A stretch of DNA of 64,000 nt from an uncultured Bacillaceae bacterium (GCA_964538675.1 CAZIGM010000002.1:2870-66869), one strand, 5' to 3'. Positions 11,765 through 28,365 are shown, counted from the stretch's first letter. The notes: a model not told the origin generated them from the letters alone. Numbers and translations are program-made.

Positions 11765-11789
11765 AAAAAAAAGCCCTTATATTAGGGCT
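11765..11789 (-). terminator. intrinsic terminator after the 11809-12456 gene
   Basis: Minus strand reads AGCCCTAATATAAGGGCT followed by TTTTTTT. Confidence 0.7.
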
Positions 11790-11808
11790 GCAACTTGTGA
11801 TTTTGAGG

Positions 11809-12456
11809 TTATTTTTTATTAAAATACATTTTCAGAATTAGCCATAATGCCAATAAAAAAGCGGCAATTATGCCAATCCATATTATGATTGATTTTGATG
11901 AGGACGGCTCAGGTTCGTCTACAAATTCATTATCCTCAGGTGGTTGAGGTATCTTTAAAGAGCTTTTATTAGTTTCTAAATAAAGCGGAATATCTTTGCT
12001 AATCCCTTTTGATAATTCAATTAAACCTTGTTCAATACTCTTTTTTTCTTTAACAATAGGAACAAAATACTTGTCAATCTCATTATTAAAAAACTCTACA
12101 TTTAAATCTTTTTTTTGTAATGCTTCACCTGTAGTTATGTATATTTTCTTTTCATCAGTAATAACTAGTATAAAAATAGTGTCCTGTGAAAAATTCCTGA
12201 AATTAAATAAAGATTCTGCCATTTCTTTAATATCTGTATTACTATTTATACTTGGAAGTATTAAATACCTATAAACCTCGGGTAATTGTTTAGCTGTTAT
12301 TTCAATATTTTGTATCTCTTCATCTGTAAAATACTTATATGAATCTTCAACAATTGGATACTTGTCATCTGAATTTGCCTCGACGACAATACTAGTACTT
12401 GTAAAGATACATAATAATAAAGAAAATACAATTAAACAAGCCATAACCCTTTTCAT
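11809..12456 (-). CDS. secreted/membrane-anchored protein, possibly TPM-domain
   Basis: 215 aa with an N-terminal signal peptide, a C-terminal TM helix and an acidic/Pro linker. The TPM assignment is only a resemblance. Confidence 0.4.
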   Translation of the reverse strand: MKRVMACLIVFSLLLCIFTSTSIVVEANSDDKYPIVEDSYKYFTDEEIQNIEITAKQLPEVYRYLILPSINSNTDIKEMAESLFNFRNFSQDTIFILVITDEKKIYITTGEALQKKDLNVEFFNNEIDKYFVPIVKEKKSIEQGLIELSKGISKDIPLYLETNKSSLKIPQPPEDNEFVDEPEPSSSKSIIIWIGIIAAFLLALWLILKMYFNKK

Positions 12457-12631
12457 TTATTCCAAGTCCCTTCAAATCACTTTATTGTGAAAAAATATAA
12501 CTAGGTAATAAACACTATTCATATATAACAAACTTTAAAATTAGTATAACATAGAACACTAGAAAATTCTTTAAACTATTTAAAAATGTAATAAAAAATA
12601 TACATATATGCATTCATACATCAAAATATAC

Positions 12632-12705
12632 AAAAATAAGCCTACATTTAGGCTGTTTATCATCATTATAATAAGCTTACTGCAAAGTAAGCTTATTATA
12701 ATGAT
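12632..12705 (-). terminator. double hairpin terminator region after the SleB-like gene
   Basis: A perfect 20-bp inverted repeat (12662-12681 / 12686-12705) is followed on the minus strand by AGCCTAAATGTAGGCT and a T-rich tract. Confidence 0.6.
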
Positions 12706-12715
12706 AACACATCTA

Positions 12716-13690
12716 TTATTTATAGAAACAATGATTCCCTATTTGAATGATTGGTTCCTTATTATTAAAATAAGTGCTAACTGAAATACTTGGATTATTA
12801 AAGAATAATGCCCCATTAGTAGGATCCACCCCAAGTAAAGCATCCTCAGCAGCTCTAAAGGAATCATTATCTGGATTTACATTGTATATCAATCCTGTTG
12901 TTACAGGTACAAATTGTGATTTTTGAAAAATAACATCATAGATTGTATTAGGAAAATACTTATCTTCAATTCTATTAAGTACTACTGCACCAACAGCAAC
13001 TAGTCCATCATATGGCTCGTCTCTTGCCTCTGTATAGATAATTTTAGCTAACCATTGAAGTTCTTCATCAGTATAACTGACTACAGCATTTGTTTTTAAA
13101 TCATCTAATGCCTTATATTGGATAGGTTCTAAATATAACTTGTCTCCAATCTGCAACATATCGCTACTTAAAGAATTCCACTCCATAATATAATCAATAC
13201 CTATACCAGTTTTCTGGCTAATTATATTTAAAGTATCACCCTCTTGAACTATATACGATGGTATTTCACTAATAAATACAGTCGATGTTTCTGATTCCCA
13301 TAATACTTTATGTCCATAGATTTCTGCAACAAATCTCACCGGCGCATAAGTGCGTCCATCAATAATTATTGCCCTTGAATCCATATATAATGTTTTATCA
13401 TTAAAGTATACTTTTTTACTATTTATATAAAATTTAGTTGTATCTATCCCATCAGTAATTATTGCCTCTCTTGCTTTACCATTCCAACTAACATAATATC
13501 CAAGCAATTCAGTAAAGGCTCTAACAGGAATATAAGTCCTACCATCAATTATTACTGCTTCCCCACTTTGGGCGAAATCTTGTCCATTAACTTTAATATT
13601 AATTGAAGATGCTCTTCCATCTATTGAAAATGATGATATCAAAAAAACAAATACTATAATCACAGTAAGGCATTTAATATATTTCTTCAT
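12716..13690 (-). CDS. spore cortex-lytic / cell wall hydrolase (SleB-CwlJ type) with two stalk domains and LysM
   Basis: Two copper-amine-oxidase-N-like repeats (DGRTY.PVR). LysM is YIVQEGDTLNIISQKTGI...GDKLYL. The C-terminal Hydrolase_2-like block is IIYTEARDEPYDGLVAVGAVVLNR. GAGGAG precedes ATG 13690. Confidence 0.8.
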   Translation of the reverse strand: MKKYIKCLTVIIVFVFLISSFSIDGRASSINIKVNGQDFAQSGEAVIIDGRTYIPVRAFTELLGYYVSWNGKAREAIITDGIDTTKFYINSKKVYFNDKTLYMDSRAIIIDGRTYAPVRFVAEIYGHKVLWESETSTVFISEIPSYIVQEGDTLNIISQKTGIGIDYIMEWNSLSSDMLQIGDKLYLEPIQYKALDDLKTNAVVSYTDEELQWLAKIIYTEARDEPYDGLVAVGAVVLNRIEDKYFPNTIYDVIFQKSQFVPVTTGLIYNVNPDNDSFRAAEDALLGVDPTNGALFFNNPSISVSTYFNNKEPIIQIGNHCFYK

Positions 13691-13802
13691 AGTCTCTCCT
13701 CTCAAAGCTTAATCTTTGAATGATGTTTAATTTATTCTAACATAGAAAAAGCTTATCTGAGAAGGTAATTTTTAGAACTAAAGTGAACAACTCCATCTGA
13801 TT

Positions 13803-13827
13803 AAAATAACCCACCTATAGAGGTGGG
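13803..13827 (-). terminator. intrinsic terminator
   Basis: Minus strand reads CCCACCTCTATAGGTGGG followed by TTATTTT. Confidence 0.6.
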
Positions 13828-13858
13828 CGTCTTAATCTAATTATAAAGCCGAACTTGA

Positions 13859-14968
13859 TTAATTTTGAAGTATCTTATTTGTAATCTTTGAATAACTAAT
13901 GATTTGATTTATTAATTCACTCTTTCTATTATTAATTGCTTCAAAATCCATAGCTTTAATATAATGTGCTTTTAGTTTATCATTAGCTTTTTTTGCCTCT
14001 TTTAAATAGTTTGTAGCTATTGTCATTTTAATTCGATATCTTGTTTCAATACTATTTAATTCTTTCTCATTTTCAATCTCCACTTTAGGATTAATACATA
14101 GAGCAAACATATCAATTATTTCATCATTTGCTCTACTCGGATTAATCACATGTGGTGCAGTACCATCAACAACTGCTATACTTAGTGAAGGAATTAGTAC
14201 CATATCAATACTATTAGGATCAAAACCACAAGGATAATATTCTACTGAAAGTCCCAATTTCTCTGCATGTTTACCGATTTTTTTCATCATAGTAGATTTA
14301 CCTGTTCCCGGTCTTCCTTTAATAATATATCTTTTTTTAATATTCTCCGTAATATTCTCAATATAATGAACATATCCTTCTGATGTAGCAGACCCGAAGA
14401 ATATATTTTTGCTAACTGGCTTGTGTTCTCTTTTTACTTCTTTACAAAAAATATCTTTTATAAATTCTTCAGTAATTTGATTAGCTTTATTAAAATTCAT
14501 TGAAGACAAATATATTTGCTCCCATTCATCATGAATGAGCTTTGCATCTGCAAATTGTTCATATGCTTGATTAGTTTTATCTTTAATATCATTTGTAAGC
14601 TTTACTATATGTAGGCGATTTTTTCTTATTATATTAGTATCCCAATATTCACCTAAATTAATTATCTCCTCAACAATTCCAGGATATTTTGGGGTTAACA
14701 GATGTGGCGTTGTTCCATCAATCACACCTAGTTTTATTGTCGGAATTATTACTCCATTTAAAGAATTTTTGTCTAATGAGCAATGGTAATAATCAACGTC
14801 GAATCCTTCGTTACTCATTAGTTCACCTATGTCTTTCATAATTGTTGATTTACCTGTTCCTGGCCCACCAATTAATATATATAGTCGTTCCAAACCCTTA
14901 ACTGCATCTTCAAACAGAGAATAAAACCCTAATGAGGTGTTTCCCTCTGCAAAGTAATTCTTAATCAT
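13859..14968 (-). CDS. uncharacterised ATPase with two P-loop modules
   Basis: 369 aa with duplicated Walker A motifs GGPGTGKST and GRPGTGKST, each followed by a similar VIDGT.PH block. Confidence 0.6.
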   Translation of the reverse strand: MIKNYFAEGNTSLGFYSLFEDAVKGLERLYILIGGPGTGKSTIMKDIGELMSNEGFDVDYYHCSLDKNSLNGVIIPTIKLGVIDGTTPHLLTPKYPGIVEEIINLGEYWDTNIIRKNRLHIVKLTNDIKDKTNQAYEQFADAKLIHDEWEQIYLSSMNFNKANQITEEFIKDIFCKEVKREHKPVSKNIFFGSATSEGYVHYIENITENIKKRYIIKGRPGTGKSTMMKKIGKHAEKLGLSVEYYPCGFDPNSIDMVLIPSLSIAVVDGTAPHVINPSRANDEIIDMFALCINPKVEIENEKELNSIETRYRIKMTIATNYLKEAKKANDKLKAHYIKAMDFEAINNRKSELINQIISYSKITNKILQN

Positions 14969-15061
14969 AATTTTTCCCCCTAGTTTAGCATTTAGTAATA
15001 TTGAAAAATAAACCCAATCATATTCTATGCATAGCCTATAAAAAAATTGTTACTTTCTTTG

Positions 15062-16417
15062 CTAGTCTGCTAGTCTTTTTTTTAAATTTAAGCTTAACTC
15101 TTCATATCCTTGCTTTCCTAATAGAGCAAACATATTTTTTTTGTATGCTTCAACTCCTTGTTGATCAAAAGGATTTACTCCCAATAAATAACCACTAATA
15201 GCACAGGCTTTTTCAAAGAAATATATCATCTTGCCTAAATAATATTCATTTAATCTTGGGATATTTATAACTATATTAGGAACACCTCCATCAACATGGG
15301 CAATTAATGTACCCTTATACGCCATTTCACTAATACCATTCATTGTTTTTTCAGATAAAAAATTCAGACCATCTAAATTATCAATATCCTCATTAATCTC
15401 CATATCTTTTCTTGGATATTTAATATTAAGAATTGTTTCAAATAAATCCTTTCGACCATCTTGCAAGTATTGACCAAGAGAATGAAGATCAGTAGTGAAT
15501 TTTAATGATGTTGGAAATATACCCTTACAATCCTTGCCTTCGCTTTCTCCAAATAACTGCTTCCACCATTCAGTAAAATAATGCATAGCTGGTTCATAAT
15601 TTGCTAATACCTCAATGCTTTTACCTTTCTTATATAAAATGTTTCTAATTGCCGCATATTGATAACATGGATTGTCTTCAATCACTTCAACACTATATGC
15701 TAATGATCCAGCTTGTGCACCTTCAAGTAACCTGTCTATATTTATTCCTGCAACAGCTATTGGTAACATACCTACAGGTGTCAAAACAGAATATCTTCCT
15801 CCCACATCATTTGGAATAACAAAAGTTTCATAACCTTCCTTTTCAGCTAATAATCTTAGAGCACCGGTGGATTTATCAGTCGTCACGACTATTCTATTCG
15901 TTGCTTCACTTTTACCATACTTGTTTTCCATATATTCCTTTAATACCCTAAATGCAATCGCCGGTTCAATTGTCGTACCTGATTTCGAGATAACATTTAT
16001 ACTAATGTCTTTATCTTTAATAACTTCCATTAATTCATTTAAATATGTTCCATTCAGATTATTTCCCGCAAAATATATCTGTGGAGAGTTCCTTTGTTCA
16101 TCTGACAAATTATTATAGAAAGAATGATTTAGAGCTTCAATAACAGCCCTTGCTCCAATATATGAACCACCAATCCCAATAGTTATAAAAGCTTGAGAAT
16201 TGCTTCTAACCCTATTGGCTACCTCTTTTAATCTTAAAAATTCTTCTTTATCATAATTAATTGGATAATCTAGCCATCCTAAATATTCCTTTCCCTGACC
16301 TGTCTTATCGTGAATCATATAATGGGCATCTATTATATATTTTTTTATGAACTCAATTTCATGCTCCTTTACAAAAGCATTAGTATAATCTAAGTTAATG
16401 TTATCCATCGTTGCCAC
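15062..16417 (-). CDS. pgi: glucose-6-phosphate isomerase
   Basis: 451 aa with typical PGI blocks ([24 protein letters not shown]). Confidence 0.9.
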
Positions 16418-16436
16418 CCCGATATCTTTTTATTAT

Positions 16437-16571
16437 AAAGCCGAACTTTATTCAGATGGAGTTTTTAAATTCATTTTCCCCCACTTAAACATAGCGAAAC
16501 TTGGGAACTCTGTTCCCTTAGTGAGACTTGCGCACTTTGTGTGGAAGTGGGAGTCTTATCATATCTGGATT
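16437..16571 (+). repeat. dispersed modular intergenic repeat, copy 2
   Basis: Has the same left end (AAAGCCGAACTTTATTCAGATGGAGTTT) and right end (GGGAGTCTTATCATATCTGGAT) as copy 1. Confidence 0.85.
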
Positions 16572-16584
16572 AAAACTATCTTAA

Positions 16585-17541
16585 CTAACTAGATAATTTA
16601 GACTTACAAAATATTGCTGCTCCAATAATCCCCGCTTCATTTCCTAACTTTGCAAAGACGATATCTCCTGCTGATATGGTTTTAATAAGTTTATTTTCCT
16701 TTACTTCAGTTTTTATTTTATCTAGTAAAAAGGGACCAGATTTAGAGAGACCGCCTCCAATTACAAAAATTTCTGGGTCAATAATATTTATTAAATTGAC
16801 AATACCAACACCTAGATACTTAACTAATCGATCTATTGATTTATTCGCAACGGTGTCACCTTTTAAAGCAGCTTCAAAGATTATCTGTCCATTTAAATTG
16901 TTAATATTTCCATTAATCATCTCGTTAACTAACGAAGTGTTTTTTTCTTGAAGAAGTTTTTTTGTATATTCTTTAAGTGCAGTTGCTGAAGCAAAGGTTT
17001 CAAAACAACCATTTTTACCACAATTACAATCATAAAAATTATTCCCTATTACCATATGTCCAATCTCTGAAGCTAATCCATGAAACCCATTATATATATT
17101 TCCGTCAATTATTATCCCTCCACCTATTCCAGTTCCTAATGTAAGCATTATTCCGCTATATGTATCTTTCATTGCTCCTACTTGATATTCAGCTAAAGCT
17201 GCCAAAGAAGCATCGTTATCTATAAATACTGGAATATTAATTTCTCTCTCCAAAATATCTCTTAAAGGAATGTCGTACCAATCTAAATTAACACATTGAA
17301 TAATATTTCCAGTTTTCTTATTAATAAACCCTGGAATTCCAATACCTACAGCTTTTACTTCTTTATTGTCTTTTACATATACTTCTATTGAGTTCGTTAT
17401 TAATTCAGCAATCTCTTTAATTATTTGAATAGGTTTTTTCTCTTTTTTTGTTGAAATTAATTTGCGGTATAAAATATTTGCATTCTCATCTACTATTCCT
17501 AAAGCAATTTTTGTGCCTCCTATATCTACACCTATATACAT
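16585..17541 (-). CDS. glcK: ROK-family glucokinase
   Basis: N-terminal IGVDIGGTK, a ROK Cys cluster (CNCGKNGCFE) and GGG motifs. Start MYIGV at 17541 follows GGAGGG. Confidence 0.85.
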   Translation of the reverse strand: MYIGVDIGGTKIALGIVDENANILYRKLISTKKEKKPIQIIKEIAELITNSIEVYVKDNKEVKAVGIGIPGFINKKTGNIIQCVNLDWYDIPLRDILEREINIPVFIDNDASLAALAEYQVGAMKDTYSGIMLTLGTGIGGGIIIDGNIYNGFHGLASEIGHMVIGNNFYDCNCGKNGCFETFASATALKEYTKKLLQEKNTSLVNEMINGNINNLNGQIIFEAALKGDTVANKSIDRLVKYLGVGIVNLINIIDPEIFVIGGGLSKSGPFLLDKIKTEVKENKLIKTISAGDIVFAKLGNEAGIIGAAIFCKSKLSS

Positions 17542-17655
17542 ATATCCCTCCAAAAACCCTAATATACTAGAAAAAGTCAAGGCTTTTTACCTTGACCCAA
17601 TAAATACTTTTTAATATATTCTTCCATTTATTATTATTCTTAAACATCCTATTTA

Positions 17656-18342
17656 TTATTTATTTGCTTTTTGTATTCGTTTACTTGCTATAGCATTTTC
17701 ATTAGGATAAAAAGCTGTGTCTTTTACATTCTCATACCATAATAAGTGATGTTCTTTCGCATAATTTACGTCTATATTTCCTTTTATTATTGATTTCAAT
17801 GCCCGCCTATAAGGCTCATAAAAATAAAAAATTACGTGTAAGGCAAAAAAGATTACAAATATTATTGTTGATATATTATGAAATAATAAACTTAGTTCAT
17901 TTACTCCAAAAATTAAAATAATTCCAGATATAGCAGATATTAATCCTACTATAATAACTAGAAGAAATGAAAATTTTTGAATAGCATTAAATTTGCCTTG
18001 TGGAACCTTTTTATTAGCTAGTAGTCCTCTAAACCATTTCCAATCTAATTCATTCCATTTAAAAATAAATAACCAGTTTCTTTTATTTTTATTCTTAATT
18101 AGATATAAAATTGGTGGAATAATGAATATTAGCCCACCTAATAGGTGAATCACCTTTTGCGGTGAACCGCTCCAAGATCCTACATAATACATAATAGCAC
18201 CTGTAATTAAAAGAATAATAAAGCCTAAAGTAAAAAACCAGTGTAGTCTTCTATCTGCTATAGTAAATCTTTTTATGAATTTTAAATTCGTCAATCCAAT
18301 TCCCATATAAATAATCTCTCCTACGACATATTTTGTTAGCAC
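17656..18342 (-). CDS. cytochrome b-like membrane protein (Ni/Fe-hydrogenase/formate dehydrogenase gamma-like)
   Basis: 228 aa with four predicted TM helices carrying conserved His positions (RRLHWFF, VIHLLGG, LFHN, ALHV). The family call is tentative. Confidence 0.45.
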   Translation of the reverse strand: MLTKYVVGEIIYMGIGLTNLKFIKRFTIADRRLHWFFTLGFIILLITGAIMYYVGSWSGSPQKVIHLLGGLIFIIPPILYLIKNKNKRNWLFIFKWNELDWKWFRGLLANKKVPQGKFNAIQKFSFLLVIIVGLISAISGIILIFGVNELSLLFHNISTIIFVIFFALHVIFYFYEPYRRALKSIIKGNIDVNYAKEHHLLWYENVKDTAFYPNENAIASKRIQKANK

Positions 18343-18533: not shown

Positions 18534-18561
18534 TTGAGTTTTCTAGTATTCATGATATAAT
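18534..18561 (+). promoter_or_regulatory. sigma-A-like promoter (TTGAGT-16 nt-TGaTATAAT)
   Basis: Extended -10 with a perfect TATAAT. The same architecture recurs at 19636-19663 and 20220-20247. Confidence 0.45.
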
Positions 18562-18567: not shown

Positions 18568-18795
18568 AAAATTAATAGTTCTTTTGAACTATAAATTAAT
18601 AATACAATCATAGATTGTGCAGATGTAAAACAACCCTTTATTAGTGATTTTATACACTAAATACAGTAATGTTGTTATAAATACATCTGGTTTACTATCG
18701 TACTACCAACACTAGTGTATGTATGGGGTTTGCTCTGTACATAGACTTTTTTGTTTTTTTCTAAAATTCAATTTTTTAAAAGAGGGTGAAGATTT
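18568..18795 (+). promoter_or_regulatory. structured ~230-nt leader L1 of the receiver gene (unclassified)
   Basis: Homologous in blocks to leader L2 (20255-20482). Ends in a terminator hairpin at 18715-18760. Confidence 0.5.
18715..18760 (+). terminator. leader L1 intrinsic terminator
   Basis: GTGTATGTA-loop-TACATAGAC followed by TTTTTTGTTTTTTT, upstream of the receiver start codon. Confidence 0.6.
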
Positions 18796-19182
18796 ATGAA
18801 AAACTCCAAGATACTTATTATTGAAGATGAACACTCTATATCCGAAATCCTAACTTATAAATTAAAAAAAGAGAAATTTGAAGTAATGGGTGCGAAAACT
18901 GGACAAGAAGGTTTAATTGTAATACCTTACTTTAAACCAGACCTTATTTTACTAGATATTAAACTTCCTGATATTAGCGGATTTGATATCTGCAAAGAGA
19001 TAAAAGATAACTATCAAACTCCTATAATTATGTTAACAGCTAGAATCAATTTAAAGGATATAAGTTATGGATTAGCCCTTGGAGCAGAAGATTATATTAC
19101 AAAGCCTTTCGACATCAATGATGTTTTAGAAAGAATTAACTTAGTATTAGATAGAAGGAAAAATACTTCATGTTTTAACTAA
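18796..19182 (+). CDS. stand-alone response-regulator receiver domain protein (CheY/Spo0F-like)
   Basis: 128 aa with acidic pocket IIEDE, phospho-acceptor LILLDIKLPD, LTAR and KPF. No output domain. RBS is GAGGGTG. Confidence 0.85.
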   Translation: MKNSKILIIEDEHSISEILTYKLKKEKFEVMGAKTGQEGLIVIPYFKPDLILLDIKLPDISGFDICKEIKDNYQTPIIMLTARINLKDISYGLALGAEDYITKPFDINDVLERINLVLDRRKNTSCFN

Positions 19183-19207
19183 ACTAAATACTTAGAAATT
19201 AATAACT

Positions 19208-19549
19208 ATGAGAAAAAATATTATTTTTCATAAGGAGGTGATTCTTATAAATACATCCTTAACAAAGAAAATAAACCATAGCAAAAATAACTCTCAAAAA
19301 CAGAAGGTTGAGGATATTGAAAAAAATATTTATGAAGAAAAATTGAAAGAAGAATTTTTCAATAATATATCTCATGAAATAAAAACTCCTATTACAATAA
19401 TCTTAGGTTATGCTCAACTATTAAAGGAAGAATACTATAGCTGTAATGGAATTCACTCTATAGCAATAGATTATATAGAATCCGAAAGCAAAAAACTAAA
19501 TTCAATAGTAGATGAAATTATTGAAAAAGCCAGATATAGTAAATATTAA
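19208..19549 (+). CDS. DHp (HisKA) -only mini-protein, paralog 1
   Basis: H-box FFNNISHEIKTPITIILGYAQLLKEE. The ORF stops about 55 aa after the His with no ATP-binding domain. Start is uncertain because AAGGAGG at 19232 is followed by no canonical start codon. Confidence 0.6.
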   Translation: MRKNIIFHKEVILINTSLTKKINHSKNNSQKQKVEDIEKNIYEEKLKEEFFNNISHEIKTPITIILGYAQLLKEEYYSCNGIHSIAIDYIESESKKLNSIVDEIIEKARYSKY

Positions 19550-19554
19550 AAACC

Positions 19555-19588
19555 CAGGTATGCGGTTTTAAAAAACTGCATACCTTTG
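19555..19588 (+). terminator. hairpin terminator after DHp paralog 1
   Basis: AGGTATGC-14 nt loop-GCATACCT followed by TTGT. The T-run is weak. Confidence 0.45.
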
Positions 19589-19635
19589 TATATATGTAAG
19601 AAAATCTTTAAAATGGTAAATTAAATAATATATGT

Positions 19636-19663
19636 TTGCAATTTACCAATATAATGATATAAT
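19636..19663 (+). promoter_or_regulatory. sigma-A-like promoter (TTGCAA-16 nt-TGaTATAAT)
   Basis: Consensus-like elements upstream of DHp paralog 2. Confidence 0.45.
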
Positions 19664-19725
19664 TTTTTTTAGCTTTTTTAATAATAAAGATTAAAACTGA
19701 TATGTTCAATGAGGAGATAGAAATA

Positions 19726-20025
19726 GTGAATATAGCTAAAAAACATAAATTTGCAAAAACTAAAATTACTTCATTTAACAAGCCTATTAATAAAAAGAAA
19801 ATAATAGTTTCAGAAAACTATAAAAAAGAATTTTTTAATAACATATCTCATGAAATTAAGACCCCACTAACTATAATCTTAGGCTACGCACAACTTTTAA
19901 AAGAAGAGAATTTCAGCTCTGAAAGACTGTATTTAGAAGCTGTTGAAAATATAGAGCATGAAAGCATAAGATTAAATTCATTAATAAATAATCTTATAGA
20001 AAAAGCAAAACAAACTAAAAATTAA
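19726..20025 (+). CDS. DHp (HisKA) -only mini-protein, paralog 2
   Basis: H-box FFNNISHEIKTPLTIILGYAQLLKEE. GTG 19726 lies 9 nt after GAGGAG, whereas the ORF-track ATG 19702 lacks an RBS. A terminator follows. Confidence 0.65.
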   Translation: MNIAKKHKFAKTKITSFNKPINKKKIIVSENYKKEFFNNISHEIKTPLTIILGYAQLLKEENFSSERLYLEAVENIEHESIRLNSLINNLIEKAKQTKN

Positions 20026-20067
20026 AAGAAGATGATTACTGCATATCTCGCAGAATCATCTTCTTTT
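20026..20067 (+). terminator. intrinsic terminator after DHp paralog 2
   Basis: 12-bp stem AAGAAGATGATT / AATCATCTTCTT followed by TT. Confidence 0.6.
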
Positions 20068-20219
20068 GCATTTATTCTCACTCATTTTTTTCTCCTTCTT
20101 TCTTCCCCTATGCCATACACTTTGTCTTTCTGAAACGTAATGAAGAATCTTTTTTTCTTGATAGATTATTCGGAAAAGCCTCAGATTAACTTATTTATGG
20201 AAAAATACATAATTAATGT

Positions 20220-20247
20220 TTGCATTCACCTTATTAAATGGTATAAT
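20220..20247 (+). promoter_or_regulatory. sigma-A-like promoter (TTGCAT-16 nt-TGgTATAAT)
   Basis: Consensus-like elements at the head of leader L2. Confidence 0.45.
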
Positions 20248-20254
20248 TTTCTAA

Positions 20255-20482
20255 GGGAAATTAAAAAGTTGCCATGACCCTTGAGTGTTGGAAGCACTCA
20301 AAGGCTCATGCAGGTGAATTGGCACCTACACGTGAGACATATTGTCTCCACAGCAACGATGTTATTATATACTATATTTGGCATTTCCTCAATCAACAAT
20401 AACATTAGTGCATGTGTAGGGTTAAACCTGCGCATGCACTTTTTAATTTCCCTCCAAAAAAAATATTTGGAGGGAAATTTAT
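20255..20482 (+). promoter_or_regulatory. structured ~230-nt leader L2 (homolog of L1)
   Basis: Block homology to L1. Terminator at 20408-20445. An extra hairpin TTCCCTCCAAA/TTTGGAGGGAA (20448-20476) covers the SD. Confidence 0.5.
20408..20445 (+). terminator. leader L2 intrinsic terminator
   Basis: GTGCATGTG-loop-CGCATGCAC followed by TTTTT. Two stem positions co-vary with the L1 hairpin. Confidence 0.6.
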
Positions 20483-20594
20483 ATGCAACAAGCTAGAATA
20501 CTCGTCATTGAAGGACTACTTCACAAAACCTTTTGATATTAACGAATTACTAAAGATAATTAAAAAGACAGTAAAACAAAGTTGCTTATGCTAG
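20483..20594 (+). pseudogene. receiver-domain gene remnant with large internal out-of-frame deletion
   Basis: Starts MQQARILVIE (receiver N-terminus). One frame over it continues DYFTKPFDINELLKIIKK (receiver C-terminus). About 85 codons are missing in between. Confidence 0.7.
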
Positions 20595-20647
20595 TTCAAT
20601 TAATTGAAATATTATTTGTATAGGTTACTAGATTAGGAGATAAGAGA

Positions 20648-20890
20648 ATGTTTATTAATGAGAAAGATAATAAAATTATTATGGAAAAATATAAAGAGGA
20701 GTTTTTCAACATTCTAGCGCATGAACTCAAAACCCCACTTACAATAATTATAGGATATGCCCAGTTGTTAAAAGAAGAAGAATTTAGTTCAAAGGAAACT
20801 TATCTAAAAGCTGTTAGCAATATAGAATATGAAAGCAAGAAGCTTAACTCTATAATAGATGAGCTTATAAAGAAGGCAAAACAATTTTAA
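20648..20890 (+). CDS. DHp (HisKA) -only mini-protein, paralog 3
   Basis: 80 aa with H-box FFNILAHELKTPLTIIIGYAQLLKEE. AGGAG lies 8 nt upstream of the ATG. Confidence 0.7.
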   Translation: MFINEKDNKIIMEKYKEEFFNILAHELKTPLTIIIGYAQLLKEEEFSSKETYLKAVSNIEYESKKLNSIIDELIKKAKQF

Positions 20891-20980
20891 GATTAGAAAA
20901 ACAGACGCTTATAAATTATTTGAGTTGAATCAAATATTAATTCAAATATATTAACATTCGACAATTTAAGACAAATTTCG

Positions 20981-21184
20981 GGAGATACACGGTATCATTG
21001 CGAACAAAGTGAGCTTACCACTTTAGTCAGAAATCATGGATTAAGGCGCTGTCGCTATTTACGATTAGAAGGTGCAAAAATTCATATAACATTAGCAAAC
21101 ACAGCTTGCAACATAATAATGATGGTGAATTTGTTAAAATCAAAGGACCAACCTAGCTTTACTCTGCTAAGAAAAGCAGGCTAG
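20981..21184 (+). pseudogene. C-terminal remnant of an IS1182/IS5-type DDE transposase
   Basis: Translates to GDTRYHCEQSELTTLVRNHGLRRCRYLRLEGAKIHITLANTACNIIMMVNLL. The HGLRR.RY.GL.K pattern is typical of that transposase tail. No upstream catalytic part is present. Confidence 0.6.
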
Positions 21185-21799: not shown

Positions 21800-23080
21800 T
21801 TAAAATCCAGGGGTGCACTTCAGGATATATTCTGCATCTGTAAGCCGTTGTTCTGCCTCTTCACATAGCGTATCGTATGTAGTTATTCTTATATCACTCC
21901 GATTATTAGTCAGTAACCGCCTCCATTGATATATTGGGATTGACGGTTTTTTGCCAATAATCAGATTTATTTCTGGCTCGTAATATTCAATTCCTTCATC
22001 TGCCAAAGTCCTTTTTACCTTATCTTGTTCCAATAAACGTTTGTAGTTCTTCACTTGCGTAATAGCGTCGTGGACAGCAGAAACAAACATAGGAACATCC
22101 GATACCGACTTAGTTAAATCAATATTGGAACGCTTTAACTCAAAGAGTTCCCAATCACCTATAATTGTATTTCTCATAAAAATATCTAACCTACGGTCCT
22201 TTTTCCCTATGTCTAAATCAGGGAATCTTAGCCATAACTGTGTTGAAATCCTATCATATTTTCCTCCAAATATTTCCTGGTAATGTTGCCGCAAGAATTC
22301 CTCTAAATGCCTTTCTTTTGCATCGCTAAAAATCAACTTATTGAATTCAACCAGAACATCATTAGCTGCGATAACCTTTTTGAGGGTAGGTTGAATCAGG
22401 GACATTGACTTTCTTGTCACGCCGGAAAATTCATTTTCAGCTATAAATCGAGATGTATGAATACCACTGTCCGAAAGACTGATACATATCCCGTCATCGT
22501 TTTCCGTTAAAAAATTGCGAAGATTGTTCCGCACAACCGCCTCGTTTTTTGCTGATGCTTTTATGAACGTGTTTATATTTCCAGCTCCAATTCGATATGT
22601 ACTGTTTGGTAACATAGAAGTTAGTTGTTTTTCATACAACGAAAGTAATTCTTCATCATCAATGCCCAATTTCTCAGTATCAAAGTTATTTATTGCATAT
22701 AAAGTGACACCGTCAACAGGAAGCCAAAGATCATACTTCCTTTTAGATATGTATTTTGACATCAAATCCCGCAACTCTGCCAAGTCAAGATTATCGGGTG
22801 TAAATTTCTCAAATACCGTACTAGGTGCATAACACATAAGAAATGCGTCTGAACTTTGGTAGAATCTCTCTGGCGGGCATTCAAAAATTCTATCATCAAT
22901 ATGGGATAACTTTTGAATTTTTCCACTATAAAGTTCAGACTCATTAAGAAGTCTTTGAAAAAACACCTCAAAAGCGTTCCTGTCAAATCTTCCGATAATC
23001 GATTTTATCAAACCATCATCCATTTTTACCTCCTGAATTATCCAATTCACCAACCAATCTTCGAAGTCGCTAAAATACAT
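21800..23080 (-). CDS. DUF4263 (Shedu SduA-type) PD-(D/E)xK nuclease-domain protein
   Basis: 426 aa. C-terminal blocks are HLEEFLRQH, RLDIFMR, WELFELKRS, AITQVKNY, NLIIGKK and ITTYDTL. The N-terminal ~270 aa is unassigned. Confidence 0.7.
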   Translation of the reverse strand: MYFSDFEDWLVNWIIQEVKMDDGLIKSIIGRFDRNAFEVFFQRLLNESELYSGKIQKLSHIDDRIFECPPERFYQSSDAFLMCYAPSTVFEKFTPDNLDLAELRDLMSKYISKRKYDLWLPVDGVTLYAINNFDTEKLGIDDEELLSLYEKQLTSMLPNSTYRIGAGNINTFIKASAKNEAVVRNNLRNFLTENDDGICISLSDSGIHTSRFIAENEFSGVTRKSMSLIQPTLKKVIAANDVLVEFNKLIFSDAKERHLEEFLRQHYQEIFGGKYDRISTQLWLRFPDLDIGKKDRRLDIFMRNTIIGDWELFELKRSNIDLTKSVSDVPMFVSAVHDAITQVKNYKRLLEQDKVKRTLADEGIEYYEPEINLIIGKKPSIPIYQWRRLLTNNRSDIRITTYDTLCEEAEQRLTDAEYILKCTPGF

Positions 23081-23171
23081 ATACTCGTACCCCTGATCAT
23101 TCTTTTAGTTGAATAAATTTGAATTCTGAATCTAAGGGTAAAACTAATTCTGATTCCATATTTCTTGGATA

Positions 23172-25031
23172 TCAATCTCTCTTTATCTGGTAATACTCCA
23201 ACACTTCACGCACATTCTTTTCCTGACAATGTTCAATATCTTCGTCTGCAAATCGGTTGCTCGCAATTATATCTTTTGCAACTTGCAATTGTTTCTCATC
23301 GAGAGCCGTAAATTTATCCCACCATTCGTTCACAAGATTACTTTCATCGTCATAATGACTTCGATATCTATCCGCAAGTCGAGTCCGAAGTTCTTCGTCA
23401 TACTTTCGGCGATATATAATAAATGCTTCTGGCATCCAAAGAATTTTATTATATTCATCAATATCTTTCCCAAACGCTTCTTCAAAAAATGCTTTGCCAC
23501 GTCCGATTTTACCTTTTGTAGCATTAAGTACAGCTTGTATTGCACGAATAAACTTACGGTTCCAGTTCTTTCCGATGTAATCACGATTGCGGAAATAAAT
23601 TGGGTCGTCAATCGGATGATACTTCATAGGAAATGAGTAAATTGTGACACCAAGTTCTTCACAAAGATCTATGTTAATCCTCATTCGATAATATAGTTCA
23701 TCCGGCTTGTCTTGATAGTTATAAAGTAGATAGTTTGAAAGGTTACTAATACCGTGTTTAGCTGCTGTTTTTATTGCCTTTATATAAATATTGCTCATAG
23801 AATAATGGTCAAATGCTATACGTAGCGGGCGAATATTAATTTCGGATAGTTTTGCCATTTTTGCATCCGTGACCAATCTTGCATCAATACCTTGATTAAA
23901 ATCAATATAGCGTGCACGTTTCACTTTTTTAAAAATTTTATCATACAATGGGCGAACAGTATCATCAAAAGCAAGGATACTATCTTTTGTTGCGGCTTCA
24001 GTGTATAGTAAATTTAACTTTTCCCGTTTGCGATAGAAGTTGCCAGCGTCTTCTTCGCTCATTTTTTTTGAAAGACGATCATATATTCCAATCATTTTTT
24101 TTCTATACGCTCTGATATTATAACTAGCTTTCAGATTATCTATAGTGAAGCTATACTCGCTTGGCGGCATATACATTGCACTTTTCGCAAATCCACATTC
24201 TTTAATTTCATCAATAATTATATCAAAACATTTTGATGCAAAAACGTTATTGTCCATTAAAAGCAGATCCTTTTGAGCACCAAAGCGTTCTTCTGTCTCC
24301 TTAATTTGTTGTTTTAGAGCTATATAATCATTATAGTCCGGTTCGAGTCTCGGCACAGCACAAAATTCACACTTATTTACACAGCCCCTTGTCATATAAC
24401 CAAAGTACGCATTATTTGCAGGATACTTGTAATCTATCTCATCAAGAATAGAATAATCTAACGGCAATTCATCAATAATATATTGATTGTCATTATCTAG
24501 AATTCCAGGTGTGTTTAACAAACCTTTATGAGGATCAATTCCCGTTTCTTTTTTAATTTCTTCTGGCAAAATGGTTGACGCAATACCTCCCACGAGCATT
24601 CTACCGTCGTCTTTGCAAAATTTCTTTGCATAGTTGACTGTTTCAATTGTTTTATTCCAATAAAAGCTAAACAGCGTAGTAATGCCTACTACGTCATATT
24701 TTGGAAAGTCCTCAGCCTTGTACCGTAATCGATACACTTTAATTTTATTTTCCAACTCACTATTTTGAAAGTCCGGGATAGCATCTAAGGGAGCATATTT
24801 CCCAGTCTTAATGTGTTCAATCAGTTTAGGAAAGTACTTACCAAGAGAAGCATCTCCAATTTCATCAAAAAACTCCTCACAGAGGAGCCTTGCAGCAAGC
24901 TCTTTTAGATTTCCCTTGAAAAATCTTACATCATCTTCAAGACGACGATAGTATGTGGCTAATTTCATTAGCCCCATAGGTGGATATTTGTTTTTATAAT
25001 CTGGCTCAATTAGCAACACTCTTCGATTCAT
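23172..25031 (-). CDS. radical SAM protein with N-terminal B12-binding-like domain (class B-like)
   Basis: 619 aa with CxxxCxxC motif TRGCVNKCEFCAV. The N-terminus LLIEPDYKNKYPPMGLMKLATY resembles class B radical SAM enzymes. The ATG overlaps the upstream stop (ATGA). Confidence 0.7.
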   Translation of the reverse strand: MNRRVLLIEPDYKNKYPPMGLMKLATYYRRLEDDVRFFKGNLKELAARLLCEEFFDEIGDASLGKYFPKLIEHIKTGKYAPLDAIPDFQNSELENKIKVYRLRYKAEDFPKYDVVGITTLFSFYWNKTIETVNYAKKFCKDDGRMLVGGIASTILPEEIKKETGIDPHKGLLNTPGILDNDNQYIIDELPLDYSILDEIDYKYPANNAYFGYMTRGCVNKCEFCAVPRLEPDYNDYIALKQQIKETEERFGAQKDLLLMDNNVFASKCFDIIIDEIKECGFAKSAMYMPPSEYSFTIDNLKASYNIRAYRKKMIGIYDRLSKKMSEEDAGNFYRKREKLNLLYTEAATKDSILAFDDTVRPLYDKIFKKVKRARYIDFNQGIDARLVTDAKMAKLSEINIRPLRIAFDHYSMSNIYIKAIKTAAKHGISNLSNYLLYNYQDKPDELYYRMRINIDLCEELGVTIYSFPMKYHPIDDPIYFRNRDYIGKNWNRKFIRAIQAVLNATKGKIGRGKAFFEEAFGKDIDEYNKILWMPEAFIIYRRKYDEELRTRLADRYRSHYDDESNLVNEWWDKFTALDEKQLQVAKDIIASNRFADEDIEHCQEKNVREVLEYYQIKRD

Positions 25032-26596
25032 TGTAGTTCGTCCTCGATCTTCTGTATTATGGTTTCAGCAGTCTCTTTGTTAGTAGATGAGACAATAATT
25101 CCAAATATTTTTGAAATAAGTTTCCGTTCTTTTTTACTATAGGTTGATAGCTTATCCGTTCTCCATGGAATTTTAGTATCCTTTGTAATGTTTGATTCAG
25201 GTGGTTTTACACTTGTCACTATAGGATTTTTTTGATTTCGCTCCGTTTCAATACGGTTAATTAAGCGCCCCATGACGTTATTATCATTTCCATCAGCTTT
25301 TTTCTTTTTCTTTTCGATATTTTTTTTTGCTTCTTCTGCCTTAGATTTTGCTTTCTTAATTTCTGCAAATTCGGCTTCTCTATGCGCGGTATCAACAAAT
25401 ACGCCTTTTGCTTCTTTTTCCTTGAACTCCGCTTCTTTCTTAGCCAAGAAATCTATCTTATTAAACGCACTATTAATGGCAGAACCGCTATAATATGTAC
25501 TTTTGAGTTCATCATTAAAATATTGTTTAAGTTCTCGTTCAAATTGATTGCGTGTTTCATTTTCATTAAAATAATCTCTCTGAGAATTCGGTATAAGGTT
25601 TTTCGCCACAGCAAAAACTTCACCGATAAAATAATGATGCCCCCTGTCTTCTTTGAATAGTTTTTGCAATGCGTTGTCGTCACCTATCTGAATATTTTCC
25701 TTACGCAGACGAAGGCCACGCATTTGGCAATCCTTATGAATAGCCGCCTTAAAAACAGATACTCCCCACCAAATCCACGCGAGAAGGTTACCATCTACAT
25801 CTCTAATATCTTTGAATTCAATAGAAAATATTTCATCATCACCTTTAGCATGAGTTTTATACTTTGTCTTATATTTTTTTACCACTGTTTCACCATTCAG
25901 AGTGATATCATATTCATCAATATTATACTTTATTTCATCGGCATGTTTATGAATCTCCTTTCGGAATATAAAAGTGTTTATATAAGGAACAGGAGCCACA
26001 AAAGATAGATATTCCTTTATTTGTGCAAAATCAAGCAAGTCAGTGTTTGCATCATTAATTCCAACAAGTTCAACCTTAAACCAATGTTCATTGGGATCCG
26101 CCTTGTCTTCTGTCGTAAATTCATTTATAGAACGAAGAACATCACTTGCAGTATATTTTTCACCCCTTCCATTCGCAACAATCATTTCACGCATTTTTTG
26201 AGCATTGCAACACATAGTTGAGATGATAGTTTCGCCTTTTGCAGTCGATGTAAAAACCAATTCTCTACAATAAGCAAGCCCACATAACCTACCAATTCCA
26301 CGAAAGCCCTTATCCTCACCTATTTTTTTATCAGAATCGGCAATGTTACCTAAAGTTTTCTGGAAATCAGCAGCCGGAATCCCTGTTGCATTATCTTCTA
26401 TACTGATAATTCGTTTATCAGAATCAAGCCAGATATGAATACGCCCCTCACCTTGAAGCAAGAGTCCTTCTCGTTCTGCTTTGTCAATTTGATCACATGC
26501 GTTCTGTATATATTCGCGATAAATAACTCTTGAATCTTGGTACATTCCTGTCGTAAGATTTTCTAATATATTTACACCAAAAACATATTTGTCCAT
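25028..26596 (-). CDS. GHKL (Bergerat-fold, HATPase_c_3/MORC-like) ATPase
   Basis: 522 aa with N box EYIQNACDQ, G1 IEDNATGI and G2 GFRGIGRLCG. A Lys/Glu-rich coiled coil lies toward the C-terminus. RBS is GAGAGGAG. Confidence 0.75.
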   Translation of the reverse strand: MDKYVFGVNILENLTTGMYQDSRVIYREYIQNACDQIDKAEREGLLLQGEGRIHIWLDSDKRIISIEDNATGIPAADFQKTLGNIADSDKKIGEDKGFRGIGRLCGLAYCRELVFTSTAKGETIISTMCCNAQKMREMIVANGRGEKYTASDVLRSINEFTTEDKADPNEHWFKVELVGINDANTDLLDFAQIKEYLSFVAPVPYINTFIFRKEIHKHADEIKYNIDEYDITLNGETVVKKYKTKYKTHAKGDDEIFSIEFKDIRDVDGNLLAWIWWGVSVFKAAIHKDCQMRGLRLRKENIQIGDDNALQKLFKEDRGHHYFIGEVFAVAKNLIPNSQRDYFNENETRNQFERELKQYFNDELKSTYYSGSAINSAFNKIDFLAKKEAEFKEKEAKGVFVDTAHREAEFAEIKKAKSKAEEAKKNIEKKKKKADGNDNNVMGRLINRIETERNQKNPIVTSVKPPESNITKDTKIPWRTDKLSTYSKKERKLISKIFGIIVSSTNKETAETIIQKIEDELQ

Positions 26597-26625
26597 TAAC
26601 TCACTCCTCTCACTTTAATTGTTTG

Positions 26626-28350: not shown

Positions 28351-28365
28351 TATTTTTACTCCTCC

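What the first reader, a model, noticed from the sequence alone, without database searches (positions are those of the whole stretch)
18796..20890. Stand-alone receiver plus three paralogous DHp-only (H-box only) mini-proteins: a kinase-less phosphotransfer or decoy module
One intact 128-aa receiver has all phospho-acceptor residues (IIEDE, LLDIKLPD, LTAR, KPF). It is followed by three paralogs of about 80-110 aa at 19208, 19726 and 20648. Each consists of a short variable N-terminus plus a histidine-kinase dimerisation/phospho-acceptor hairpin, for example FFNNISHEIKTPLTIILGYAQLLKEE...ES..LNS.I..LIEKAK. All three stop at the same domain boundary, about 55 residues after the His. Two are followed by terminator hairpins. 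No N, G1, F or G2 ATP-binding boxes occur anywhere nearby. The shared boundary argues for genuine domain-limited genes rather than random truncations. They could act as Spo0B-like phosphotransferases partnered with a Spo0F-like receiver. Alternatively they could be dominant-negative heterodimerising inhibitors of a full-length kinase encoded elsewhere.
Basis: partly seen in the sequence, partly recalled or inferred. Interest (0 to 1): 0.7.

Follow-up and report, generated by a model that had tools for sequence, protein, structure and literature searches.

The report
Kinase-less mini two-component genes, conserved
The short receiver gene and the three "histidine-kinase hairpin only" genes are real, selected genes of a rare family (also found fused into one protein elsewhere), not kinase wreckage; they probably tune a normal two-component pathway and sit behind a conserved, unclassified structured RNA leader.

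Summary
The region contains one intact 128-aa receiver and three paralogous 80-113-aa proteins that match only HisKA (DHp). All three stop at the end of DHp helix 2, and no catalytic, sensor, HAMP or DNA-binding remnants lie nearby.

These are not truncation debris:
- About 12 short relatives exist in other genomes and metagenomes, all ending at the same boundary.
- The syntenic locus of a Vulcanibacillus MAG (housekeeping neighbours 66-77% identical) carries two DHp-only genes and no kinase.
- dN/dS of the DHp core is 0.03-0.15 with synonymous sites near saturation.
- Two 211-aa REC-DHp fusion proteins end at the same boundary.

- A second receiver, destroyed by an out-of-frame internal deletion (20483-20594).
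- The receiver is dispensable in the family: 8 of 14 units lack it.
- A ~230-nt structured leader (20252-20482) that is more conserved than the coding DNA and has no Rfam match.

The mechanism is inferred, not shown. The proteins cannot autophosphorylate, yet His, E/D(+1), T/N(+4) and all receiver phospho-residues are kept. I therefore favour a phosphotransfer/phosphatase accessory branch, most likely attenuating, on a full-length OmpR-class system. This is a new variant of the known but unstudied "HisKA without HATPase" class.

The parts
18534..18561 (+). Promoter-like site of unit 1 (TTGAGT-16-TGnTATAAT)
   Evidence: Consensus scan only, 10 of 12 matches with an extended -10.
18659..18754 (+). 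Degenerate leader of unit 1. It keeps the P5-like hairpin and the intrinsic terminator (18718-18743 plus T run). The four-way junction is not recognisable.
   Evidence: Hit of covariance model R1, 34.7 bits, E=2.8e-7. Terminator scan. 73% identical to the region upstream of the DHp gene in L007.
18796..19182 (+). Stand-alone receiver (REC only, 128 aa), OmpR/YycF-class, with all phospho-acceptor residues and no DNA-binding domain
   Evidence: Pfam Response_reg E=1.6e-28. Best PDB match is B. subtilis YycF receiver, 3e-29. NCBIfam YycF model covered only at positions 2-121 of 231. dN/dS 0.10-0.20 against L005 and L001.
19208..19549 (+). DHp-only protein 1 (113 aa; His56). The start codon is uncertain.
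   Evidence: HisKA only, E=1.2e-15. Orthologues P0154 and P0006/L007. Core dN/dS 0.13, N-terminal extension 0.52.
19556..19585 (+). Intrinsic terminator after DHp1
   Evidence: 13-bp stem plus T run.
19613..19666 (+). Promoter of unit 2 (TTTGCA-17-TGnTATAAT), a copy of the unit-3 promoter
   Evidence: Direct repeat D2, 74% identical to 20197-20250. Promoter scan. The same motif lies upstream of the second DHp gene of L003.
19702..20025 (+). DHp-only protein 2 (107 aa from ATG 19702; probably 99 aa from GTG 19726, which has a GAGGAGA Shine-Dalgarno). No receiver and no leader.
   Evidence: HisKA only, E=4.8e-17. AF2 model: residues 1-28 disordered, helices 29-67 and 74-106. Foldseek top hits are the DHp of HK853, DivL, YycG, SrrB and PhoR.
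20026..20067 (+). Terminator hairpin after DHp2
   Evidence: Self-complementary, 86% over 42 nt, followed by TTTTGC in the sequence.
20197..20250 (+). Promoter of unit 3 (TTTGCA-17-TGGTATAAT)
   Evidence: Conserved in L001 and L005.
20252..20482 (+). Structured leader RNA. In consensus coordinates:
- 5' strand 20255-20269, complementary to 20438-20452.
- Predicted four-way junction about 20268-20357.
- P5 hairpin 20358-20406.
- Terminator 20407-20440 plus U tract.
- Anti-SD/SD hairpin about 20445-20480.
   Evidence: 82-92% nt identity to L001, L005 and L011, against 56-81% for the adjacent DHp core. MFE z-score -7.3. Consensus fold. Covariation is weak: 4 compensatory pairs, 3 of them in the terminator. 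No Rfam match.
20483..20594 (+). Dead receiver of unit 3. The first ~10 codons (MQQARILVIE) are joined out of frame to the last ~27 codons (DYFTKPFDINELL...); about 300 nt are deleted.
   Evidence: Alignment with the intact units of L005 and L001. tblastn of full-length regulators hits 20514-20582 at E=0.02.
20648..20890 (+). DHp-only protein 3 (80 aa; His25) with its own Shine-Dalgarno (TTAGGAGA), conserved in L005
   Evidence: HisKA only, E=2.6e-15. 75% identical to the L005 DHp; core dN/dS 0.09.

Best explanation
The locus is a lineage-specific expansion of a conserved "mini two-component" module. The module consists of a promoter, a structured leader with a terminator and an SD-sequestering hairpin, an OmpR-class receiver that has lost its DNA-binding domain, and a HisKA DHp hairpin that has lost its sensor, HAMP and ATP-binding domains.

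Shown:
- The genes are real and under strong purifying selection.
- They end cleanly at domain boundaries.
- They recur at the orthologous locus of a relative.
- They exist as single-chain REC-DHp fusions elsewhere.
- The receiver is often lost while the DHp gene is kept.

Inferred mechanism:
- The DHp proteins dimerise into a four-helix bundle that cannot autophosphorylate.
- They still bind OmpR-class receivers.
- They use the retained His / E-D(+1) / T-N(+4) motif to take phosphoryl groups back from, or hydrolyse them off, receiver~P.
- The REC-only protein competes for the same kinase or DHp surface, acting as a phosphate sink or as a mask of the DHp.
- Together they form an accessory, most likely attenuating, branch on a full-length paralogous OmpR-class system encoded elsewhere.
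- Their dosage is set by the leader RNA.

In this window, unit 1 is complete, unit 2 is DHp only, and unit 3 has just lost its receiver.
For: 1. A family of short proteins. A full HMMER scan of 1.84 billion representatives puts 80-137-aa proteins at the top. Full kinases (~490 aa) come only below, matching over the DHp alone. There are 12 short members at 90% clustering, and all end within about 5 residues of each other.
2. Orthologous locus. L003 is collinear with window 9565-17574 at 66-77% aa identity, then carries two 98-aa DHp-only genes. L007 is similar.
3. Selection. dN/dS is 0.08-0.28 in all pairs with dS of about 1 or more. The DHp core gives 0.03-0.15 and the N-terminal extension 0.5-0.9.
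4. Fusions. Rosetta-stone fusions P0270 and P0125 (211 aa, REC plus a 20-aa disordered linker plus a DHp hairpin) sit between smc and yebC and end at the same boundary.
5. Catalytic residues. His is invariant. +1 is E or D. +4 is T in 9 of 10 aligned members and N in the tenth. +5 is P in 9 of 10 (S in the tenth). The role of the acidic +1 and T/N +4 residues is as quoted. The receiver D/D/T/K residues are kept in all 8 mini-receivers and fusions.
6. No remnants of lost domains. Each gene has its own terminator.
7. Closest full-length relatives. Those of the receiver (P0272, 56%) and of the DHp (P0010, ~46-50% identical over the DHp stretch) report the same longest-contig length, 13177 bp. This suggests one parent-type system. 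Helix-1 contact positions are similar between the minis and these kinases (read).
8. Precedents. Kinase-dead HK derivatives work with single-domain receivers in SdrG-PhyT (PMC5898713) and RedD-RedE (PMC2755868).
Against: - No expression, interaction or phosphotransfer data exist.
- No target system has been identified.
- All characterised kinase-dead relatives (Spo0B, ChpT, PhyT, RedE) keep a CA-like domain, and RedE's phosphatase needs ADP. A bare DHp may therefore be a poor catalyst.
- Conservation of the H-box could reflect binding rather than chemistry.
- The family is small and fast-changing (duplications, receiver loss, leader decay). That pattern also fits a dispensable or conflict-related role.
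- The "same contig" inference for P0010 and P0272 rests only on equal contig lengths.
Confidence: 0.55

Rival explanations
1. Binding-only decoys. The DHp proteins heterodimerise with, or the pair titrates, a full-length kinase or regulator without any phosphoryl chemistry (dominant-negative small proteins).
For: - The DHp is the dimerisation module and the minis keep a complete hairpin.
- The receiver is dispensable in 8 of 14 units.
- Helix-1 positions resemble those of the closest full kinases.
- REC-like inhibitors of kinases are known, for example FixT (PMC7078487).
Against: - The phospho-acceptor His is invariant and the E/D(+1), T/N(+4), P(+5) positions are kept in all or nearly all members. 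All receiver phospho-residues are kept across sequences whose synonymous sites are saturated. A pure decoy would be free to lose them.
- The closest full kinases are only ~45-55% identical in the DHp, which is low for specific heterodimerisation.
Confidence: 0.2
2. Forward phosphorelay of the Spo0F/Spo0B type. An upstream kinase phosphorylates the receiver, the DHp His takes the phosphoryl group, and it passes it to a terminal regulator to activate it.
For: - The architecture is REC only plus a His-bearing four-helix-bundle protein in one operon, or in one chain.
- Precedents are Spo0F-Spo0B and SdrG-PhyT-PhyR.
Against: - Most family units have no receiver, and one was lost recently in this window.
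- The receiver is nearer to YycF/OmpR-class receivers (3e-29) than to Spo0F (about 1e-17).
- Pfam sees HisKA, not a Spo0B-type domain.
- There is no pseudo-CA domain.
Confidence: 0.15
3. Decaying fragments of one or several full-length kinase genes, that is, pseudogene debris in a variable, IS-scarred region.
For: - One receiver in the cluster is dead.
- A transposase fragment lies just downstream (weak).
- The N-terminal extensions evolve almost neutrally.
- The leader of unit 1 is degenerate.
Against: - Core dN/dS is 0.03-0.15 with dS near saturation.
- The same short form sits at the orthologous locus of a genome about 70% identical in housekeeping proteins.
- There are no CA, HAMP or sensor remnants.
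- DNA homology among the copies stops at the stop codons.
- Fusions have the same end.
Confidence: 0.03
4. Conflict or addiction module. The DHp protein is a toxin-like shut-off of an essential WalRK-like pathway, the receiver is its antidote, and the pair is deployed next to defence systems.
For: - Two receiver-bearing units lie beside defence genes: Shedu and a mad8-like island in the window, and PDC-M68B plus MNT/HEPN in L005.
- The receiver's best named match is YycF.
- Turnover of copies is rapid.
Against: - The window locus is syntenic with L003 and L007, where no defence genes are adjacent.
- The fusions sit between smc and yebC.
- Many DHp genes lack the supposed antidote.
- There are no family members in the viral collection.
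- The DHp has no PADLOC hit.
Confidence: 0.07

Closest known systems
"HisKA, no HATPase" / "possible incomplete histidine kinase" class (P2CS; Galperin census, PMC5847659)
   Same: HisKA domain with a conserved His and no ATP-binding domain. REC-...-HisKA proteins without HATPase are listed there (e.g. AF_1472). None has been studied experimentally.
   Different: The archaeal examples carry PAS/GAF sensor domains. Here the protein is essentially a bare DHp hairpin (68-113 aa). It is paired or fused with a bare receiver and sits behind a structured leader.
Spo0F-Spo0B (B. subtilis) and ChpT (Caulobacter) dimeric histidine phosphotransferases
   Same: A single-domain receiver plus a dimeric helical-hairpin protein with a phosphorylatable His and no autokinase activity.
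   Different: Spo0B and ChpT keep a degenerate CA-like domain (own knowledge; stated for ChpT and Spo0B). The minis have none. Pfam assigns them to HisKA, not to the Spo0B domain. The receiver is not a Spo0F orthologue.
SdrG-PhyT-PhyR relay of Sphingomonas melonis (PMC5898713)
   Same: A degenerate kinase takes phosphoryl from a single-domain receiver on its His. It also sequesters the output regulator, so it is both positive and negative.
   Different: PhyT is membrane-anchored, belongs to a different HK lineage and keeps a degenerate catalytic domain. The organisms are alphaproteobacteria.
RedD-RedE of Myxococcus xanthus (PMC2755868)
   Same: An HK-like protein that does not autophosphorylate. 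It receives phosphoryl from a receiver protein on its His and dephosphorylates another regulator.
   Different: RedE has a conserved HATPase_c domain and its phosphatase needs ADP/ATP. The minis have no nucleotide-binding domain.
Isolated EnvZ DHp ("domain A") in vitro
   Same: A bare DHp dimer binds its regulator, can be phosphorylated in trans and retains regulator-phosphatase activity. This is from my own knowledge of Zhu et al. 2000, whose title is cited in papers found.
   Different: It is an engineered fragment, not a natural gene.
FixT and other single-domain receivers acting as inhibitors or phosphate sinks (PMC7078487, PMC4214558)
   Same: A REC-only protein feeds back on a kinase or drains phosphoryl groups.
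   Different: FixT works with a full kinase and has no DHp-only partner. The receiver here keeps all phospho-acceptor residues.

Membership tests
HisKA (PF00512) DHp domain | Profile match above Pfam gathering score | tested here: met
   56.7-62.2 bits against a cut-off of 26.9 for all three proteins.
HisKA (PF00512) DHp domain | Conserved phospho-acceptor His with acidic +1 and T/N +4 | tested here: met
   HE[IL]KTP in all three window proteins. His is invariant in 10 of 10 family members; +4 is T in nine and N in one.
HisKA (PF00512) DHp domain | Antiparallel two-helix hairpin fold | tested here: met
   AF2 helices 29-67 and 74-106, pLDDT 86-97. Foldseek top hits are the DHp of HK853, DivL, YycG, SrrB and PhoR, at rmsd 1.3-2.8 A.
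HisKA (PF00512) DHp domain | Homodimeric four-helix bundle | not testable with these tools
   No multimer prediction was available.
Sensor histidine kinase (functional HK) | HATPase_c catalytic domain with N, G1, F and G2 boxes | tested here: not met
   No HATPase_c in any of the three proteins. tblastn with three full kinases finds no CA-like DNA in the window or the related loci.
Sensor histidine kinase (functional HK) | Input (sensor/TM/HAMP) region | tested here: not met
   The N-terminal 16-47 residues are short, poorly conserved (dN/dS 0.5-0.9) and predicted disordered.
Response regulator receiver (PF00072) | Profile match plus acidic pocket, phospho-Asp, Thr and Lys | tested here: met
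   99.5 bits covering positions 1-111 of 111. E10-D11, D54, T82 and K104 are conserved in all mini-receivers.
OmpR/PhoB-family response regulator (incl. YycF/WalR) | C-terminal winged-helix Trans_reg_C domain | tested here: not met
   The protein ends after helix 5. The NCBIfam YycF model is covered only at positions 2-121 of 231, 118 bits against a cut-off of 340. No wHTH remnant in the DNA.
Spo0B / ChpT dimeric histidine phosphotransferases | Helical hairpin with His plus a C-terminal pseudo-CA alpha/beta domain | tested here: not met
   The proteins stop at the end of helix 2.
Spo0B / ChpT dimeric histidine phosphotransferases | Reversible Asp-His-Asp phosphotransfer | not testable with these tools
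   This needs biochemistry.
Spo0F | Orthology to the sporulation single-domain receiver | tested here: not met
   PDB search: YycF 3e-29, Spo0F 8e-18 to 1e-16.
"HisKA without HATPase" incomplete-HK class (P2CS) | HisKA with a conserved His present and HATPase absent in a complete ORF | tested here: met
   The class definition is quoted.
Riboswitch / cis-regulatory leader (for 20252-20482) | Conserved structured domain upstream of the genes, with an expression platform | tested here: inconclusive
   - Present: a terminator and an SD-sequestering hairpin.
- More conserved than the coding DNA; z-score -7.3.
- Weaknesses: only 4 full copies, junction helices invariant, 4 compensatory pairs.
Riboswitch / cis-regulatory leader (for 20252-20482) | Match to a described RNA family | tested here: not met
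   No Rfam 15 hit at E<=1 in the window region or E<=5 over the leader in L001 and L011. ARAGORN negative.

The most novel reading that the evidence does not exclude
Bare DHp hairpins are a natural class of small-protein regulators of two-component signalling. They are built from the kinase's own interaction module and work as stand-alone regulator phosphatases or phosphoryl shuttles, with or without a cognate REC-only partner. Their production is gated by a previously undescribed structured RNA (a four-way-junction leader) that senses an unknown signal. Other unrelated 58-96-aa HisKA-only proteins seen in the searches hint that the principle is wider than this clade.
Probability: 0.3. Interest if true: 0.75.

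Novelty: new variant of a known kind. Interest (0 to 1): 0.58.

Why it matters
Genome annotation treats HisKA-only ORFs as "incomplete" or broken kinases. Here one such family can be shown by comparative evidence alone to be maintained by selection. The evidence is the orthologous locus, saturated synonymous sites, fusion proteins and a shared regulatory leader.

If the proteins act as inferred, they are a minimal natural His-Asp module made only of the two interacting domains. Such a module could do three things:
- Test directly whether a DHp alone is a competent phosphatase or phosphotransferase in vivo.
- Add a new type of accessory regulator to two-component signalling.
- Offer small, portable parts for rewiring such pathways.

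The leader RNA is a separate candidate for a new cis-regulatory RNA class.

Tried and rejected
1. N-terminal extension as a receiver relic. The N-terminal extensions of the 98-113-aa DHp proteins looked like relics of a receiver (LTKKF/ILRPF vs ITKPF; KNIIFHKEV vs KILIIEDE, seen in alignment A8). A receiver HMM gives only 0-1 bit, at inconsistent positions, so the idea is not supported.
2. Hidden kinase or regulator remnants. tblastn with full-length kinases and regulators finds none.
3. Genome-collection scan with the DHp alignment. Neither the source genome nor family members were recovered.
4. Metagenome and viral scans with a 20-base pattern from the leader junction. Four chance matches were all rejected by the covariance model; the viral scan found none.
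5. Viral-contig scan with the DHp alignment. It returned only distant kinase-like matches, none in the family.
6. Known RNA families and tRNA-like genes for the leader: none.
7. PADLOC for the DHp: no hit. The receiver hit to a Shedu model reflects a REC domain inside that model, not membership.
8. Literature search for characterised "DHp-only" or "HisKA-only" proteins. Nothing specific was found in the held library.
9. The leader of unit 1 and of the fusions as full copies of the RNA. Only the P5-like hairpin and the terminator are recognisable.
Full report
**1. Observation**

The coordinates and content are as described.
- ORF 18796-19182 is a complete receiver domain (Pfam Response_reg, E=1.6e-28). 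It carries the acidic pocket, Asp54, Thr82 and Lys104.
- ORFs 19208-19549, 19702-20025 and 20648-20890 match HisKA only, at E=1e-15 to 5e-17. None matches HATPase_c.
- The three share 216 nt of DNA homology that ends exactly at the stop codons, and they share an invariant H-box.
- Terminator hairpins follow DHp1 and DHp2.
- tblastn with three full-length relatives (sensor-HAMP-DHp-CA) finds only the DHp stretches, both in the whole 64-kb window and in every related locus.
- tblastn with full OmpR-type regulators finds no winged-helix remnant.

**2. Anatomy**

The region holds three units, not one.
- Unit 1: promoter-like site 18534-18561, a degenerate leader with a terminator (18659-18754), the receiver, DHp1 and a terminator.
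- Unit 2: a copy of the unit-3 promoter (19613-19666), then DHp2 and a terminator. The GTG at 19726 behind GAGGAGA is probably the real start.
- Unit 3: promoter 20197-20250, a ~230-nt leader, the remnant of a second receiver, then DHp3 with its own Shine-Dalgarno.

Aligning unit 3 with intact units from two other organisms shows what happened to that receiver. About 300 nt have been deleted out of frame, leaving MQQARILVIE... and ...DYFTKPFDINELL in different frames. Downstream lie a weak transposase fragment and a defence island containing Shedu and a mad8-like gene.

**3. Relatives**

A full HMMER scan of 1.84 billion representative proteins ranks 80-137-aa proteins first. Complete kinases of about 490 aa come only afterwards, and they match over the DHp alone. 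The word-indexed search finds 12 short members. All end within about 5 residues of each other, and His is invariant.

Genomic contexts are as follows.
- L003, contig 1 of Vulcanibacillus MAG GCA_050175155.1, is collinear with window 9565-17574 (CobA, rhomboid, TPM, LysM hydrolase, AAA, PGI, ROK at 66-77% aa identity). It then carries two tandem 98-aa DHp-only genes and no receiver.
- L007 has one DHp-only gene between the LysM hydrolase and an ABC transporter.
- L005 (same MAG, another contig) and L001 (a JGI metagenome) have leader, receiver (127 aa) and DHp (80 or 68 aa).
- L011, L008 and L009 have the leader, or its 3' end, directly before a DHp gene.
- Two proteins of 211 aa (P0270, P0125; loci L092-L094, between smc and yebC) are receiver-DHp fusions that end at the same DHp boundary.
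- A 122-aa receiver-only orphan also exists.

Counting units with known context, six have a receiver and eight do not.

**4. Selection**

Nei-Gojobori estimates give dN/dS of 0.08-0.28 for every pair of DHp genes, receivers and fusions, with synonymous divergence near or beyond saturation. Splitting the DHp genes gives 0.03-0.15 for the 67-codon core and 0.5-0.9 for the N-terminal extension. The hairpin is therefore strongly constrained and the extension is close to neutral. The extension is also predicted to be disordered. This excludes pseudogene debris.

**5. Origin**

- The receiver is OmpR/YycF-class: B. subtilis YycF receiver at 3e-29, Spo0F at about 1e-17. The NCBIfam YycF model is covered over its first half only.
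- The DHp is nearest to WalK/PhoR/PnpS-type H-boxes.
- The closest full-length regulator (P0272, 56%) and the closest full-length kinase (P0010, ~46-50% identical over the DHp stretch) both report a longest contig of 13,177 bp. They may therefore be neighbours. I could not fetch that contig.
- The pair thus looks like a full OmpR-class system stripped to its two interacting domains.

**6. Structure**

- AF2 models DHp2 as a disordered N-terminus plus two long helices. Foldseek aligns them to the DHp of HK853, DivL, YycG, SrrB and PhoR.
- The fusion is a confident receiver, a 20-residue disordered linker and the hairpin. pTM is 0.58, so the relative orientation of the two domains is not fixed.

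**7. Leader**

- Window 20252-20482 is 82-92% identical to the leaders of L001, L005 and L011, while the adjacent DHp cores are only 56-81% identical.
- RNAalifold predicts a closing helix, three hairpins with invariant stems and variable loops (a four-way junction), a further hairpin, an intrinsic terminator and a hairpin that pairs CCCUCC with the GGAGGG Shine-Dalgarno.
- The 5' 15 nt are perfectly complementary to the U tract plus the anti-SD strand. This suggests a switch.
- The MFE z-score is -7.3.
- Covariation is thin: four compensatory pairs, three of them in the terminator, because most pairs never vary.
- A covariance model finds the complete motif only in these four loci. It finds the P5-like hairpin and terminator part upstream of unit 1 and in L007, and only weakly upstream of the fusions.
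- There is no Rfam match, and pattern scans of the metagenome and viral collections gave nothing real.

**8. Mechanism (inference)**

- Without a CA domain the proteins cannot autophosphorylate.
- The family keeps the phospho-acceptor His, the acidic +1 residue and the T/N at +4. The text quoted links the acidic +1 residue to kinase activity and the T/N at +4 to phosphatase activity. The family also keeps every receiver phospho-residue. This argues that phosphoryl chemistry, not only binding, is selected.
- Because the receiver is often lost, the DHp must also act on something encoded elsewhere.
- I therefore favour an accessory branch on a full-length OmpR-class system. In it the DHp dimers bind the regulator and remove or shuttle its phosphoryl group. 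The REC-only protein acts as a sink or as a competitor for the DHp or the kinase.
- Precedents exist for kinase-dead HK derivatives working with single-domain receivers: SdrG-PhyT and RedD-RedE. All of those keep a CA-like domain.
- Rivals are binding-only decoys, a forward Spo0F/Spo0B-like relay and a conflict-type module.

**9. Comparison and novelty**

"HisKA without HATPase" proteins are a recognised but unstudied annotation class. Stand-alone HisKA proteins are also listed as putative phosphotransfer proteins in surveys. The new elements here are:
- comparative proof that one such family of bare hairpins is functional;
- its pairing or fusion with a bare receiver;
- its dynamics of duplication and receiver loss;
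- its dedicated structured leader.

I found no characterised DHp-only protein in the held literature. Unrelated short HisKA-only proteins also turned up in the searches, so the phenomenon may be broader.

**10. Caveats**

- The family is small (about a dozen clusters) and mostly known from short metagenomic contigs.
- There are no expression or biochemical data, and the target pathway is unknown.
- The RNA structure rests mainly on thermodynamics and conservation, not covariation.

Noticed in passing
window 20252-20482 (also L001 1353-1590, L005 7329-7570, L011 3-235): A ~230-nt structured leader with no Rfam match. It has a predicted four-way junction, a further hairpin, a terminator and an SD-sequestering hairpin. 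Its 5' strand can pair with the anti-SD. It is more conserved than the genes it precedes. It is a candidate new cis-regulatory RNA or riboswitch, with only four full copies found.
   Followed up: partly
window 20483-20594: Remnant of a second receiver gene. An out-of-frame internal deletion of about 300 nt leaves the first ~10 and the last ~27 codons. This is receiver loss caught in progress.
   Followed up: yes
window 20978-21184 (+): Translates to ...HGLRRCRYLRLEGAKIHITLANTACNIIMMVNLL..., which resembles the C-terminus of an IS1182/IS5-type DDE transposase. Pfam DDE_Tnp_1_6 matches only at E=0.04. It is probably an IS scar bounding the cluster.
   Followed up: partly
window 21800-29619 (-): A defence island next to the cluster. 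It contains Shedu SduA (21800-23080), a 619-aa protein with a weak radical-SAM hit, a 522-aa GHKL ATPase (HATPase_c_3), a 574-aa mad8-like protein and a 417-aa unknown. The island is absent from the syntenic loci L003 and L007, which have ABC transporters there.
   Followed up: partly
window 9565-17574 vs L003 1-7600: Collinear with contig 1 of Vulcanibacillus sp. MAG GCA_050175155.1 at 66-77% aa identity. The window therefore comes from a related member of the Bacillaceae. The cytochrome b561 gene at 17656-18342 has no counterpart at that position in L003.
   Followed up: partly
L092 6001-6636; L093/L094 6001-6636: 211-aa receiver-DHp fusion proteins without a catalytic domain, at a conserved housekeeping position between smc and yebC in another lineage. 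A leader upstream keeps the terminator but not the junction.
   Followed up: partly
proteins P0242, P0250, P0256, P0258, P0191: Unrelated short (58-96 aa) HisKA-only proteins from other lineages, including an isolate, Desulfuribacillus stibiiarsenatis. P0250, P0256 and P0258 share conserved C-termini. Bare DHp proteins may therefore have arisen several times.
   Followed up: no
L005 4031-6961 and 8621-9332: The receiver-DHp unit of the Vulcanibacillus MAG sits between a SMEK_N / DUF2326 (PDC-M68B, LmuB-like) pair and an MNT/HEPN pair, with IstB and a methyltransferase nearby. This is another defence or mobile context.
   Followed up: no
window 19232-19241: A strong Shine-Dalgarno-like AAGGAGGTGA lies inside the annotated DHp1 ORF and is partly conserved in L007 (AAGGCGGTGA). 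No canonical start codon follows it at the usual spacing, so the true start of DHp1 is unclear.
   Followed up: no
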